This document shows, in pieces, positions 51,501-54,500 of a DNA stretch of 64,000 bases (position 1 is the stretch's first letter; each line of letters opens with the position of its first letter). Position numbers: made by a program. This stretch comes from Escherichia coli (GTDB lineage Bacteria; Pseudomonadota; Gammaproteobacteria; Enterobacterales; Enterobacteriaceae): the NCBI RefSeq assembly GCF_017348835.2, contig NZ_CP071375.1; one strand, written 5' to 3'.

Positions 51501-54500
51501 TTACGGTGTATTACCTCCGCTTTGTAAAGACCATTGATGCTCTCAGCCATCGCGTTGTCATACGAGTCGCCAGTACTCCCTGTTGATGCCAGTAATCCGG
51601 CTTCCTTAAGCCGCTGCGTGTAGGCCAGCGATACATACTGAGAACCTTTATCACTGTGATGGATTGTGCCGGACGGCCGACGGGCCCACAACGCCTGCTC
51701 CAGTGCATCCAGCACGAATGTTGTTTCCATGGATGATGAGACCTGCCATCCCACGATGTATCCGGCGAACACATCAATGATGAACGCCACATAAACGAAG
51801 CCCTGCCATGTGCTTACCCAGGTAAAATCAGCCACCCACAACTGGTCTGGACGTTCTGCCACGAACTGACGGTTTACGCGGTCGCATGCGGCAACGGCTT
51901 TCCGGCTGACGGTAGTGCGGACCTTTTTACCCCGGAGAACACCGGCAAGTCCCATAACTGCCATGAGACGTGCCACAGTGCATCTGGCCACTCTGATACC
52001 TTCCCGTAACAACTGACGCCAGACTTTACGCACACCGTATACCTGGTGATTTTCATCGTATACGCGCTGTATCTCTTTCTTCAGCCAGTCATCGTGCTGC
52101 GCACGGGCACTGCGTTTATCCGGATGATGTCGCTGTTGCTGACAATGGTAATACGTTGACGGGGCAATATGCAGTTCGCTGCATACCGGTCCGACCCCGT
52201 ACTGCTCACGCAGCTTATCCAGCAGTGGCATCATTTTTTCCAGAGGCGGTCGAACTCCGCCTTCGCAAAATAAGCGGAAGCCTGGCGAAGGATATCGTTA
52301 CTGCGGCGCAGTTCACGATTTTCACGTTCCAGCTCTTTCAGACGCTGACGTTCAGCGGTGGTGAGTCCACCATCACCACTCCCGGTATCCCGCTCATGCT
52401 GGCGAACCCAGACACGCAGAGTCTCCGGCGTACAGCCAATCTTTGGGGCAATGGAACAAATTGCCGCCCACTGTGAGTCATATTCATCCTGACTTTCCAG
52501 AACCATACGAATCGCCCGCTGACGGACTTCGGGGGAAAAACGAGTATTTTTAGTCATCCTGTTTACCTCTTTCTCAGGGAGTTTAGTCTCCAGGATTTCC
52601 GGGGCGGTTCACTTCGAAGTATTCTTCGTAAGCCTTTTCCATGATTGTGTCGAAATCCATATCACTCACCTGAGTTTCTTTCCAGCCAGCGACGGGCACC
52701 ATTTTCGGTTTTAAACGTTTTGCTTTTGGTATACGTCATCGCGGTGAATGTACCGTCCTGGTTGGGAAACACGCCGTACACCAGAGATTCGTTGTTGCCA
52801 AGATCGATAGTATCCATGTTGACCTCATTTCCCCTTAACGCCGGGTAGCGGAACAAAAACCTGCTGCATAGTTATTAAAGTTGAACCCTGCCGTCATGTT
52901 CATACGCCTCGGGCTGGCTACTTACCCCCTGACCACTGCTTGGTAACTCGAAGTATTGCCCGGCGTTCTGTGGGGCGGGGTGGGTGGTTGGTGTATGTAA
53001 TCTACAATTAAAAACTGTTTTGTGTCAACAGTTTTTAATTGTTGTTTTGGGCAAAAAAATCCCTCGAAAGAGGGAGTATGAAAATTGTTCAACTCAGATA
53101 GAGAAGGGAAATTGTCGCCGAGAATGTGTCACGCTTACAATCTCAATGCTTGAAGCAGCTACTCTGTACAGGATTATGTAGTTAGGGTGGGTCACGATCT
53201 CTCTCAATCCAGAAACCCGTTCGCTTGGTGGATATAAGTACGGATGCTCAGATAGAGGTAATACCGATGTTTCAATGCGTATTTTTAGTCTACGTGCTGC
53301 CGGTGGGTTCTCCTTGGCGATGTAAGTTATGATCTGGCGCAAATCATCGCGAGCAGACGGTAGCCATAAAATGGGTAACATTACTCGCTCTTGTTAGTTA
53401 CAGCAATTTGAGCAATAAGATTTTCCATTTCAGCCATTACCTCGTCATGTGGAATTGCGGGGCGAGTGTCTGCAAGGCTTGACGTTACTTTAGTGCGCAA
53501 CCATTCGTTGTAACTGTTTTCTTGTTCGGTAGTTTCGAATTCTGAAACTATCGGAGAAAGGGCTGTACCCATGGCATAACTCCTCTTCTTGTACTGTGGT
53601 CACGCCCGGCGGCTTTTTTGTGCCGCCAGCCACCTAGCAATGGTTTCTTCCATTGATTTTTTCTTGTCTTTGATTTCTTGAAGCATTTTTTCTTGGTCTT
53701 CCTCAGGAAACGCACTAAAAGCTTGGAGCAGTTCGCGTTGGCGAGGACCAATTTTCATCGTGTCAGGGGTGAAAATTGGCTCACACTCTTCAGGAGGCAA
53801 TAAAAACCAATGCAATGGATGCCCTGAAACCTCAACCAGTTTATCCAAACTTGAGGCTTTAGGTGTAGCCTTACCGCTGACCCATTGTTGAACAGTTTGT
53901 TGTGTCACACCAATTCTACGGGCAAGCTCAGCCTGGCTCCATCCAGTTTCCTGAAGAAGCTTGCTGATTCTGTACATAGATACTTCTAGGGCGCTCATCA
54001 TTATTCAATTTTACAGGTAAATACTGTTAAAAGCATCACAATAAAAAACTGTTGATTGCATACAGTTTTTTATTGTAGTCTTTGCTTATAGTTTTTAGAG
54101 GAGGGCAAAATGCTAGATAGCACTCGCGAAAAAATTAGGCAGAAATACACTCAGGCTGAAATAGGTCGTTATATGGGGGTCGCTCAACAGACTGTTTGGC
54201 AATGGTTTAGCTTTGGCGTTCCCCCAAAGCAGGTAATTCCGTTATGCCAACTAATGAAGTGGGAAGTTACCCCGCATGAAATCCGCCCAGATATTTATCC
54301 TAACCCAACCGACGGTTTACCTGTTGGATGTAAGGTTAACACATCAAATGCGCCGGAGTTGATTCATGAAAATCAAGCATGAACACATCCGCATGGCGAT
54401 GAATGCCTGGGCGCATCCGGACGGCGAAAAAGTACCGGCTGCGAAAATTACCAAAGCGTATTTCGAGCTGGGAATGACGTTCCCGGAACTGTATGACGAC

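What the first reader, a model, noticed from the sequence alone, without database searches (positions are those of the whole stretch)
53006..54076. Two perfect palindromes with a shared AAAAACTGT/ACAGTTTTT core define candidate operators of the non-cleavable repressor
A 15-bp inverted repeat with a 9-bp spacer lies between the divergent repressor and cro-like genes, and a 14-bp inverted repeat with a 7-bp loop lies about 1 kb to the left, downstream of the TA pair. This looks like an OR/OL pair, but with single large palindromes rather than lambda's triple 17-bp sites. The repressor has no S24 peptidase domain, so induction would not be by RecA-mediated autocleavage.
Basis: seen in the sequence. 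Interest (0 to 1): 0.5.

Follow-up and report, generated by a model that had tools for sequence, protein, structure and literature searches.

The report
Prophage repressor operators: OR triple, OL double
The two long palindromes are real and very likely are the control sites of a prophage's on/off switch, but each is a pair of ordinary 15-bp repressor-binding sites lying back to back, with a third site nearby, so the switch has the classic lambda/434 layout and is not a new design.

Summary
Both palindromes exist and share one geometry: 15-bp arms with a 9-bp spacer, at 53004-53042 and 54038-54076. The half-site occurs only four times in 64 kb (0.34 expected).

They sit in the immunity region of an E. 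coli Sp4/CP-933M-type prophage. That region encodes a non-cleavable HTH repressor, a PaaA-ParE toxin-antitoxin pair, and divergent YdaS (Cro-like) and YdaT (CII-like) genes.

The OR/OL reading holds. The "single large palindrome instead of triple sites" reading does not.
- Each arm is itself a 15-bp pseudo-palindrome, ACA-N9-TGT, with phage 434-type half-sites (ACAAT/ACAGT).
- A third such site (54013-54027) abuts the -10 of a predicted leaderless repressor promoter.
- Relatives at 50-80% repressor identity keep three sites at OR and, where sequence sufficed, two at OL, at the same spacing. Adjacent sites there are rarely mirror images.
- A matrix built only from relatives ranks the window's five sites 1-5.
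- Among 45 close loci, sites vary at 1/45 positions and non-site positions at 13/25.
- A recognition-helix residue covaries with half-site base 4.

The -35 hexamers of PR and PL lie in the spacers. All evidence is computational. Verdict: a new member of a known kind, of modest interest.

The parts
53004..53018 (.). OL1, a 15-bp operator subsite (ACAATTAAAAACTGT) lying between the -35 and -10 of PL
   Evidence: 18.4 bits on the relatives-only matrix; 2/15 positions vary among 24 OL haplotypes
53028..53042 (.). OL2, a 15-bp operator subsite (ACAGTTTTTAATTGT) just upstream of and touching the PL -35
   Evidence: (18.5 bits); the six relatives with enough downstream sequence have a two-site OL 23-24 bp apart
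52999..53028 (-). Predicted PL: -35 TTGACA (53028->53023), 18-nt spacer, -10 TAGATT (53004->52999). It drives ydfA (DUF1391) and, in relatives, the ydfABC-dicF-dicB operon
   Evidence: 10/12 consensus match; TTGAC conserved in the OL spacer of five of six relatives; gene context
53053..53075 (-). Intrinsic terminator of the repressor-paaA-parE operon (GC hairpin TCCCTCTTTCGAGGGA followed by U7)
   Evidence: conserved in close relatives
53094..53381 (-). ParE-family toxin gene
   Evidence: Pfam PF05016, E 2.9e-17
53381..53572 (-). PaaA2-family antitoxin gene
   Evidence: Pfam PF21217, E 5.6e-19
53600..54001 (-). Non-cleavable repressor, 133 aa: 434-like five-helix HTH domain, linker, and C-terminal helical hairpin. 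One residue different from Sakai Sp4 ECs_1069
54001..54013 (-). Predicted PRM: -10 TAAAAT (54013->54008) followed by 6 nt and then the ATG (54001), implying a leaderless repressor mRNA; the -35 is weak
   Evidence: Read from sequence. The layout -10 + 6 nt + ATG is kept in 9 of 10 relatives read (8 nt in L016), and none has a Shine-Dalgarno sequence. The -10 and ATG are invariant while 5 of the 6 bases between them vary. Leaderless translation is proven only for PaaR2 (PMC8630535)
54013..54027 (.). OR3, a solitary 15-bp subsite (ACAGGTAAATACTGT) overlapping the PRM -10 and spacer
   Evidence: 19.1 bits, rank 3 of 64 kb on the relatives-only matrix; same position in relatives; 1/15 positions vary
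54038..54052 (.). OR2 (ACAATAAAAAACTGT), centred about -44 from the PRM start and touching the PR -35
   Evidence: 19.4 bits; 0/15 positions vary
54062..54076 (.). OR1 (ACAGTTTTTTATTGT), filling the PR spacer between -35 and -10
   Evidence: 19.5 bits; 0/15 positions vary
54052..54081 (+). Predicted PR: -35 TTGATT (54052-54057), 18-nt spacer, -10 TAGTCT (54076-54081). It drives the cro-like gene and ydaT
   Evidence: Read from sequence; below the scan threshold. Same layout as PL, and conserved as TTGACC-18-TAGTCT / TACTCT in relatives
54110..54382 (+). YdaS-family Cro-like gene; its recognition helix AQQTVWQW shares the QQ motif with the repressor and with 434 Cro
54359..54376 (.). Perfect YdaT (CII-like) binding-site consensus, TTGATTCATGAAAATCAA, at the ydaS/ydaT junction
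   Evidence: The only 0-mismatch hit in the window. Consensus and location as footprinted in CP-933P (PMC9986795). The window's YdaT matches PDB 8bt1 at E 1e-82
52989..54354 (.). Immunity-specific module, bounded by homology breakpoints against heteroimmune prophages
   Evidence: Rac, UTI89 and other prophages align only to window 52860/52877-52988 and 54355-54400

Best explanation
The two palindromes are the core of the right and left operators of a lambdoid immunity region, of the type found in prophage Sp4/CP-933M of E. coli O157.

The binding unit is not the 39-bp palindrome. It is a 15-bp pseudo-palindrome, ACA(A/G)(T/G)-N5-(A/C)(C/T)TGT, each probably bound by one dimer of the 133-aa non-cleavable repressor. 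The repressor would read it through a 434-type recognition helix (TQQTVQQW). The YdaS-type Cro-like protein (AQQTVWQW) probably binds the same sites.

OR has three such sites with centres 24 and 25 bp apart: OR1 54062-76, OR2 54038-52, OR3 54013-27. OL has two: OL1 53004-18 and OL2 53028-42. In this lineage the two promoter-proximal sites of each operator happen to be exact mirror images, and that creates the long palindromes.

The -35 hexamers of PR and PL sit in the 9-bp spacers, and one site fills each promoter's -35/-10 spacer. Repressor on O1 and O2 would therefore occlude PR (cro-like gene, ydaT, replication genes) and PL (ydfA ... dicF-dicB). OR2, centred near -44 of a weak, apparently leaderless PRM, is placed to activate repressor synthesis. 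OR3 overlaps the PRM -10 and would give negative autoregulation or Cro repression.

Shown here, all in silico: the sites, their spacing, their conservation, the promoter-like elements, and covariation with the recognition helix. Inferred by analogy to lambda, 434 and PaaR2: which protein binds which site and in what order, cooperativity, PRM activation, OL-OR looping, and induction by something other than RecA-stimulated autocleavage.
For: (1) Anatomy. Each arm begins ACA and ends TGT, and a third ACA-N9-TGT site lies 25 bp to the left.
(2) Comparison. Repressor homologues at 50-80% identity from Salmonella, Klebsiella, Pluralibacter, Morganella and metagenomes keep three 15-bp sites at the same offsets from a conserved -10 + 6 nt + ATG. 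The six with enough downstream sequence also have a two-site OL with TTGAC in the spacer in five of them. Neighbouring sites are usually not mirror images: 9-14 of 15 positions match, against 15/15 in the window.
(3) A weight matrix built from relatives only ranks the window's five sites 1-5 (18.4-19.5 bits). The sixth hit scores 13.4 bits and lies inside an ORF.
(4) Population footprint. In 18 OR haplotypes from 45 loci, sites vary at 1/45 positions and non-site intergenic positions at 13/25 (Fisher p = 1.2e-6). The OR1-OR2 spacer varies at 6/9 positions. OL shows the same pattern.
(5) Protein. The best solved relative of the HTH domain is the 434 repressor N-terminal domain (E 3e-5), with Gln28/Gln29/Gln33 equivalents present. 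The annotated 434 operators are ACAA/ACAG-type 14-mers; OR3 is ACAGTTTTTCTTGT. All Cro-like partners keep QQ.
(6) Covariation. With Gln at the 434-Gln33 position, half-site base 4 is A or G in 48/48 cases. With Arg it is C in 24/30.
(7) Promoters. PL is TTGACA-18-TAGATT. The homologous PR layout is conserved.
(8) The sites lie just inside the immunity-module breakpoints.
(9) Precedent. PaaR2/YdaS of CP-933P bind multi-site OR and OL operators and repress PR, PRM and PL (PMC8630535). RacR has three 15-bp inverted repeats (PMC9638921).
Against: There are no binding, footprinting or transcript data for this repressor; everything is sequence inference.

The predicted PR -10 (TAGTCT, TAGGCT in most strains) and the 18-nt spacers are poor matches, and PR fell below the threshold of the promoter scan.

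The exact 15/15 mirror symmetry of O1 and O2 at both operators is about 1e-3 likely if sites were drawn independently from the family matrix. It is invariant at OR in 45 loci. The simple 'independent dimer sites' model does not require this, so some higher-order symmetry or mutational process is unaccounted for.

The sites are 15 bp, not the 14 bp of 434, so the 434 docking geometry cannot be transferred literally.

The helix/base covariation comes from a few clades and is not phylogenetically independent. Lys-bearing clades are mixed.
Confidence: 0.85

Rival explanations
1. One reading: each 39-bp palindrome is one large operator, read as a unit by a single repressor oligomer through two long 15-bp half-sites. 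The switch would then have one site at OR and one at OL instead of multiple sites.
For: Perfect 15/15 dyad symmetry at both loci. That symmetry is about 1e-3 likely for two independent family-type sites. It is invariant at OR in 45 loci while the spacer varies. Near-mirror pairs recur in some relatives: L013 OL 14/15 and L014 OR 13/15. A dimer-of-dimers with its dyad on the -35 is plausible for a repressor whose distant analogue PaaR2 is an octamer in solution (PMC8630535).
Against: Most relatives with the same recognition helix have neighbouring sites that are no more alike in mirror than in direct orientation (mirror 9-12 of 15, direct 9-12 of 15), yet keep the positions and the ACA...TGT ends. 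A solitary third site with no mirror partner scores as high as the arms and is conserved. Each arm has its own internal dyad, matching 434-type dimer sites.
Confidence: 0.1
2. The palindromes act as RNA or DNA hairpins and not as protein-binding sites. The left one would be a transcription terminator or attenuator downstream of the toxin-antitoxin operon.
For: As RNA they fold well (-15.7 and -17.8 kcal/mol, z about -5). The scan flags the left one on the + strand as terminator-like, with 16 pairs followed by TGTTTTGG. A conserved stem with a variable loop would also fit a structural element.
Against: The operon's own terminator is a separate GC-rich hairpin plus U7 at 53053-53075, upstream of the palindrome on the transcribed strand. 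The palindrome stems have only 3 GC pairs, and on the minus strand no U-run follows. Hairpin potential is not conserved in relatives (-1.8 to -13.8 kcal/mol against -15), whereas the 15-bp sites are. The right palindrome lies upstream of both transcription starts, so it would not normally be transcribed. No Rfam family matches.
Confidence: 0.03
3. The inner CTGT...ACAG portions are LexA (SOS) boxes, which would put PR and PL directly under SOS control and explain induction without a cleavable repressor.
For: The inner ends read CTGT-N9-ACAG in both palindromes, resembling the LexA box CTGT-N8-ACAG. The genuine sulA box in the same window is CTGTATGGATGTACAG.
Against: The spacing is N9, and N10 in the O157 OL, not N8. 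An exact-pattern scan finds only the sulA box and one weak site at 62731, not the palindromes. The CTGT/ACAG ends are not kept in relatives (for example L006 CTGT-N9-ACAA).
Confidence: 0.01

Closest known systems
Phage 434 cI/Cro with operators OR1-3 and OL1-3
   Same: The HTH domain is the nearest solved relative (E 3e-5) and keeps the Gln-Gln...Gln recognition helix. Half-sites are ACAA/ACAG; the window's OR1, ACAGTTTTTTATTGT, compares with 434 OR3, ACAGTTTTTCTTGT. Site centres are AT-rich. OR3 abuts the PRM -10 and OR2 is centred near -44 of PRM. Repressor and Cro share the QQ motif.
   Different: Sites are 15 bp, not 14. Centre-to-centre spacing is 24/25 bp, against 22/23. The PR -35 lies between O1 and O2, not between OR2 and OR3. 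OL has two sites, not three. The repressor has a short helical C-terminal region in place of the S24 autocleavage domain. The repressor mRNA is apparently leaderless, whereas 434 has an annotated ribosome-binding site.
PaaR2-PaaA2-ParE2 / YdaS / YdaT immunity region of CP-933P (Jurenas et al. 2021, PMC8630535; Prolic-Kalinsek et al. 2023, PMC9986795)
   Same: Same gene order and families. A toxin-antitoxin pair sits between the repressor and OL/PL. The repressor is non-cleavable, with a leaderless-type start. PR, PRM and PL each carry repeated operators. YdaT is nearly identical (8bt1, E 1e-82), and its TTGATT-N6-AATCAA site is at the same place. The paper itself notes a homologous system on CP-933M.
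   Different: PaaR2 (which starts MQKKE) is not among homologues at E<=1e-5. Its operators are four 18-bp inverted repeats with consensus GTTTAGTAA at OR and three at OL, which is a different sequence, length and number. This is a different immunity specificity, and its operators are not described in the papers I could search.
Phage lambda cI/cro with OR1-3 and OL1-3
   Same: Tripartite OR with 24/23-bp centre spacing. O1 lies between the PR -35 and -10, O2 lies beside the -35 and is positioned to activate PRM, and O3 lies over PRM. The cI mRNA from PRM is leaderless. Accessory genes (rexAB there, paaA-parE here) and a terminator lie between the repressor gene and OL/PL. These lambda features are textbook knowledge, not tested here.
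   Different: Lambda sites are 17 bp and unrelated in sequence. Lambda OL has three sites. Lambda CI has an S24-type cleavable C-terminal domain.
RacR/YdaS/YdaT (Rac) and DicA/DicC (Qin) cryptic-prophage switches
   Same: Short non-cleavable HTH repressors divergent from ydaS-ydaT. RacR has three 15-bp inverted repeats in the intergenic region (PMC9638921). The leftward operon here is the ydfABC-dicF-dicB type, and the PL leader is 94-97% identical to Rac.
   Different: The RacR half-site is WTAGGC-n3-GCCTAW, and its O3 overlaps the racR start codon. The proteins are only about 25% identical.

Membership tests
Lambdoid CI/Cro-type immunity region (OR/OL operator sets) | Divergent repressor and cro-like genes with several similar operator sites in the intergenic region, overlapping both promoters | tested here: met
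   Three ACA-N9-TGT sites in the 108-bp intergenic region overlap the predicted PR and PRM
Lambdoid CI/Cro-type immunity region (OR/OL operator sets) | A second operator cluster at a leftward early promoter, beyond the repressor operon | tested here: met
   OL1/OL2 with TTGACA-18-TAGATT; conserved as a two-site OL in the six relatives with enough downstream sequence
Lambdoid CI/Cro-type immunity region (OR/OL operator sets) | Operators, repressor and cro form one exchangeable immunity-specific module | tested here: met
   Homology to heteroimmune prophages stops at 52988 and resumes at 54355
Lambdoid CI/Cro-type immunity region (OR/OL operator sets) | Repressor and Cro bind the sites and repress PR, PL and PRM | not testable with these tools
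   Needs EMSA or footprinting and reporter fusions. Indirect support comes from the selection footprint and helix/base covariation
Phage 434-type operator/repressor recognition | HTH recognition helix with Gln-Gln at its start and Gln at +5, reading ACAA/ACAG half-sites | tested here: met
   Alignment to 434 repressor; half-sites ACAAT/ACAGT/ACAGG; 434 operators read from the annotated genome
Phage 434-type operator/repressor recognition | 14-bp operator (ACAA-N6-TTGT) | tested here: not met
   All sites here and in relatives are 15 bp, ACA-N9-TGT
Phage 434-type operator/repressor recognition | LexA-like S24 C-terminal domain, with RecA-stimulated autocleavage | tested here: not met
   Only HTH families match, in residues 7-72. 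The AF2 model has a helical hairpin at residues 86-131. PMC2669165 reports that the Sp4 repressor lacks the peptidase domain
PaaR-PaaA-ParE / YdaS / YdaT immunity region (CP-933P type) | Gene order repressor-paaA-parE, divergent from ydaS-ydaT | tested here: met
   Pfam PF21217, PF05016, PF15943 and PF06254
PaaR-PaaA-ParE / YdaS / YdaT immunity region (CP-933P type) | Operators are 18-bp inverted repeats with consensus GTTTAGTAA (four at OR, three at OL) | tested here: not met
   The sites here are different in sequence, length and number (against PMC8630535)
PaaR-PaaA-ParE / YdaS / YdaT immunity region (CP-933P type) | Leaderless repressor mRNA from PRM | tested here: inconclusive
   -10 TAAAAT + 6 nt + ATG with no Shine-Dalgarno sequence, conserved in most relatives. 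No transcript mapping is available
PaaR-PaaA-ParE / YdaS / YdaT immunity region (CP-933P type) | YdaT site TTGATT-N6-AATCAA at the end of ydaS | tested here: met
   Perfect match at 54359-54376; YdaT matches 8bt1 at E 1e-82
PaaR-PaaA-ParE / YdaS / YdaT immunity region (CP-933P type) | Repressor homologous to PaaR2 | not tested
   I could not retrieve the PaaR2 sequence. It is absent from hits at E<=1e-5 and from the PDB sequence hits
Intrinsic (rho-independent) terminator, considered for the left palindrome | GC-rich stem followed directly by a U-run on the transcribed strand, conserved as a hairpin | tested here: not met
   Only 3 of 16 pairs are GC, no U-run follows on the minus strand, and the real terminator lies next to it. 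The hairpin is not conserved in relatives
LexA SOS box | CTGT-N8-ACAG | tested here: not met
   The palindromes have N9 or N10. An exact scan finds only the sulA box and one weak site elsewhere

The most novel reading that the evidence does not exclude
The exact 39-bp dyad may be a selected feature of this lineage and not an accident. It consists of two 15-bp sites as perfect mirror images, with oppositely oriented A6/T6 tracts on either side of the -35 hexamer. It is present at both OR and OL and is invariant at OR in 45 loci, while the spacer between the sites is close to saturated with changes. The repressor could bind as a symmetric dimer-of-dimers whose dyad sits on the -35, with the A-tracts wrapping the DNA. 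Alternatively, cruciform extrusion at the promoters could contribute to the switch. Either would be a composite 'super-operator' layered on ordinary 434-type sites.
Probability: 0.12. Interest if true: 0.5.

Novelty: new member of a known kind. Interest (0 to 1): 0.3.

Why it matters
This gives a concrete and testable operator map for the Sp4/CP-933M-type immunity region: five sites, three promoters and a terminator. That region is present in at least 508 of the 5,426 complete E. coli genomes searched, including O157:H7, and I found no published operator description for it.

It extends the PaaR2/YdaS/YdaT paradigm to a second, heteroimmune specificity. It also shows that this repressor family reads 434-like half-sites on a 15-bp frame, with one recognition-helix residue tracking base 4 of the half-site. 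That is useful for predicting immunity groups of cryptic prophages and possible cross-talk among the many O157 prophages.

PL controls the dicF-dicB cell-division inhibitor operon and PRM controls a ParE toxin module, so the sites bear on host physiology. Conceptually, however, this is the classic lambdoid switch.

Tried and rejected
1. Phage repressors sharing about 50% identity over the HTH domain only (phi467, Stx2 phages, PhiR49_2). They have an S24 domain, a different helix (SAQSVQYW) and unrelated operators, so they tell nothing about this specificity.

2. Full-text search for 434 operator strings found nothing. I read the operators from the annotated phage 434 genome instead.

3. I could not obtain the PaaR2 sequence. 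A search for the crystallisation paper failed. PaaR2 is not among the hits, so the PaaR2 relationship is untested.

4. LexA-box idea: rejected on spacing and lack of conservation.

5. Known RNA families: none at the palindromes.

6. Terminator idea for the left palindrome: rejected.

7. Foldseek of the AF2 model gave only generic XRE/HTH_3 matches for the N-terminal domain (434 repressor 1pra, TM 0.78; SinR; C-proteins). It gave nothing specific for the C-terminal helices.

8. The sixth-best matrix hit (59057-59071, 13.4 bits) lies inside an ORF and was treated as chance.

9. The E. coli clade with helix AQQSVQKW (L010 type) has ACAC-type sites with degenerate second halves. It scores below threshold on the matrix and was used only for the covariation table.
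Full report
**1. Observation**

Both inverted repeats exist.
- Right: ACAATAAAAAACTGT (54038-54052), then tgattgcat, then ACAGTTTTTTATTGT (54062-54076).
- Left: ACAATTAAAAACTGT (53004-53018), then tttgtgtca, then ACAGTTTTTAATTGT (53028-53042).

The left repeat pairs perfectly over 16 bp with a 7-nt loop. In the register of the right one it is also 15 + 9 + 15, so the two are copies of a single 39-bp design that differ by one base per arm. The 15-mer, allowing up to 2 mismatches, occurs only at these four arms in 64 kb. The chance expectation is 0.34 hits, and 1 of 100 shuffles reached 4.

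**2. Context**

Pfam assigns the genes as follows.

| Coordinates | Strand | Product |
|---|---|---|
| 53600-54001 | - | 133-aa HTH_3 protein with no other domain (the repressor) |
| 53381-53572 | - | PaaA2-family antitoxin |
| 53094-53381 | - | ParE toxin |
| 54110-54382 | + | YdaS-type Cro-like protein |
| 54366-54791 | + | YdaT |
| 52662-52856 | - | DUF1391 (YdfA) |

The window carries ompA-sulA-sxy followed by a prophage. Sakai prophage Sp4 (CP-933M in EDL933) sits at the same chromosomal place with the same genes. Its repressor, ECs_1069, differs by one residue, and its OR is identical apart from one base in the PR -10. The module covers at least 80% of the query in 508 of 5,426 complete E. 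coli genomes.

Published work on the sister system in CP-933P shows that PaaR2, YdaS and YdaT act as CI, Cro and CII, with multi-site OR and OL operators, and that the paaR2 mRNA is leaderless. It notes a homologous system on CP-933M (PMC8630535). The Sp4 repressor is reported to lack the peptidase domain (PMC2669165). I found no description of this repressor's operators.

**3. What the palindromes are made of**

Each 15-bp arm starts ACA and ends TGT, so it is itself a pseudo-palindrome (ACAAT-AAAAA-ACTGT). A third such sequence, ACAGGTAAATACTGT, lies at 54013-54027. That is 25 bp to the left of the right palindrome's left arm, and it abuts a TAAAAT -10 on the minus strand.

The closest solved relative of the repressor's HTH domain is the N-terminal domain of the phage 434 repressor (E 3e-5). 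The helix aligns as TQQTVQQ against TQQSIEQ. The annotated 434 genome gives these operators:
- OR1 ACAAACTTTCTTGT
- OR2 ACAATGTATCTTGT
- OR3 ACAGTTTTTCTTGT

These have the same ACAA/ACAG half-sites and AT-rich centres, but on a 14-bp frame instead of 15 bp.

**4. Comparative test**

Homologues of the repressor form a graded series from 80% to about 50% identity. I fetched loci for Salmonella (L006), Klebsiella michiganensis (L008, L014), Pluralibacter (L012), Morganella (L013) and metagenomic relatives, plus 80 viral contigs.

In all loci with the same or similar helices, three 15-bp ACA-N9-TGT sites sit at the same offsets (about -75, -51 and -26) from a conserved -10 + 6 nt + ATG. Examples:
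- Salmonella: ACAGTAAATTACTGT / ACAATAATTTACTGT / ACAGTATTTCCCTGT
- K. michiganensis: ACAAGATACTCTTGT / ACAGTTATTTCTTGT / ACAAGCATTCCCTGT

Each of the six relatives with enough downstream sequence also has exactly two sites, 23-24 bp apart, beyond the repressor operon. Five of the six have TTGAC in the spacer between them.

The neighbouring sites are mirror images only in the window (15/15 at both operators) and, partly, in two relatives. Elsewhere mirror identity (9-12 of 15) is no higher than direct identity, and hairpin energies fall from -15 to between -1.8 and -13.8 kcal/mol. The conserved unit is therefore the 15-mer and not the 39-mer.

**5. Independent scoring**

A symmetrised weight matrix built from 18 sites of relatives, excluding the window, was scanned over the window. 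The top five positions are exactly OR1, OR2, OR3, OL2 and OL1, at 19.5, 19.4, 19.1, 18.5 and 18.4 bits. The sixth scores 13.4 bits and lies inside an ORF. No further copies occur in the window.

**6. Selection footprint**

I compared 18 distinct OR haplotypes from 45 close loci.

| Segment | Variable positions |
|---|---|
| OR1 | 0/15 |
| OR2 | 0/15 |
| OR3 | 1/15 (a central base) |
| OR1-OR2 spacer | 6/9 |
| OR2-OR3 spacer | 2/10 |
| Between PRM -10 and ATG | 5/6 |

Pooled, sites vary at 1/45 positions and non-site positions at 13/25 (Fisher p = 1.2e-6). In the OR1-OR2 spacer, the bases that stay fixed are part of the PR -35. Across 24 OL haplotypes the two sites and the TTGACA are nearly invariant, while the flanks on both sides are highly variable.

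**7. Protein-DNA covariation**

All repressors keep the Gln-Gln pair, and so do all the Cro-like partners, as 434 Cro does. The residue aligned with 434 Gln33 tracks half-site base 4:
- Gln: A or G in 48/48 half-sites.
- Arg: C in 24/30.
- Lys: mixed C and A.

The clades are few and not independent. The direction agrees with the role of Gln33 at base pair 4 in the 434 complex, which I state from established structural knowledge and did not test here.

**8. Promoters and boundaries**

- PL, on the minus strand, is TTGACA (53028->53023), 18 nt, TAGATT (53004->52999).
- PR has the homologous layout: TTGATT (54052-57), 18 nt, TAGTCT (54076-81). It is conserved as TTGACC-18-TAGTCT / TACTCT in relatives, but it is weak and fell below the scan threshold.
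- In both promoters the -35 sits in the inter-site spacer and one site fills the -35/-10 spacer.
- PRM is TAAAAT (54013->54008) with the ATG seven bases downstream and no Shine-Dalgarno sequence. This predicts a leaderless mRNA, as proven for PaaR2 and lambda cI. OR3 overlaps its -10 and spacer, and OR2 is centred near -44.
- The operon terminator is a separate GC hairpin plus U7 at 53053-53075.
- Heteroimmune prophages (Rac, UTI89 and others) align only up to 52988 and again from 54355. OL/PL, the toxin-antitoxin pair, the repressor, OR and cro therefore form one exchangeable immunity module.

**9. Mechanism (inferred)**

- Repressor dimers on O1 and O2 occlude PR and PL.
- OR2-bound repressor may activate PRM.
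- OR3 gives autorepression or Cro repression.
- OL-OR looping over 1.03 kb is possible if the protein forms higher oligomers, as PaaR2 does.

The AF2 model (pLDDT 82) shows a five-helix HTH domain, a flexible linker, and a helix plus long-helix C-terminal region suited to oligomerisation. There is no peptidase fold. Induction therefore cannot use autocleavage. The only good LexA box in the window belongs to sulA.

**10. What remains odd**

Exact mirror symmetry of two family-type sites has a probability of about 1e-3, yet it occurs at both operators and is fixed at OR. Two explanations are possible:
- Selection, for example a symmetric tetramer with its dyad on the -35, or A-tract bending.
- A mutational process that perfects quasi-palindromes by template switching. 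This process is established in E. coli, but its role here is inference.

I cannot distinguish between the two.

**11. Verdict**

The OR/OL interpretation is supported. The claim that the design departs from lambda's multi-site plan is refuted. This is a new, previously unmapped member of the lambdoid CI/Cro operator family, with 434-like half-sites on a 15-bp frame. Interest is modest.

Noticed in passing
window 54359-54376: A perfect TTGATT-N6-AATCAA inverted repeat (TTGATTCATGAAAATCAA) straddles the ydaT start codon at the end of the cro-like gene. It is the only 0-mismatch hit in 64 kb. It matches the footprinted primary YdaT site (OM) of CP-933P, and the window's YdaT is nearly identical to the crystallised protein (8bt1, E 1e-82).
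   Followed up: partly
window 54053-54061, and the same spacer in L020-L060: The first five bases of the 9-bp spacer between OR1 and OR2 are close to saturated with substitutions (at least 12 variants among 18 haplotypes), while both flanking 15-mers are invariant. This may be relaxed constraint, or raised mutation in the loop of a perfect palindrome.
   Followed up: partly
L019 (Sakai Sp4) 27365-27410; L001; window 53004-53028: O157:H7 strains carry an extra T between OL1 and the PL -35, plus a T-to-A change in OL1. This lengthens the PL spacer from 18 to 19 nt and the inter-site spacer to 10 bp, and may weaken PL (the dicB operon) in O157.
   Followed up: no
window about 51300-52610 and about 60030-61310: There are two copies of an IS629/IS1203-type IS3 element; an ALIL frameshift pseudoknot lies at 52160-52276. 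The first copy is inserted directly after ydfA (52662-52817) and cuts the predicted PL operon off from DicF RNA (50058-50109, minus strand) and the genes beyond it.
   Followed up: partly
L087, L096, L097 (IMG/VR contigs), upstream of position 3001: In some relatives the repressor homologue is directly preceded by the 3' end of a second PaaR-like gene (ending ...ARWLAQQGRRA*). That makes two tandem paralogous repressors with no OR-like intergenic region between them.
   Followed up: no
window 52860-52988: The 129 bp just downstream of the predicted PL start are 94-98% identical in heteroimmune prophages and phages (Rac, Evi, vB_EcoS-683R6 and others) and are not annotated there. This is a conserved leader of unknown role; a nutL-like function is possible.
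   Followed up: no
window 34742-34757: The canonical LexA box (TACTGTATGGATGTACAGTA) upstream of sulA. It is ordinary, but it serves as an in-window control showing that the operator palindromes do not fit SOS-box spacing.
   Followed up: yes
L010/L011, L065-L094 (E. coli clade at 63-65% identity, also with PaaA-ParE): A second E. coli PaaR-like immunity type (helix AQQSVQKW) has three sites starting ACAC at the same positions, but the second half-sites are degenerate (TAACT, TCAGC). This suggests asymmetric recognition or a different register.
   Followed up: partly
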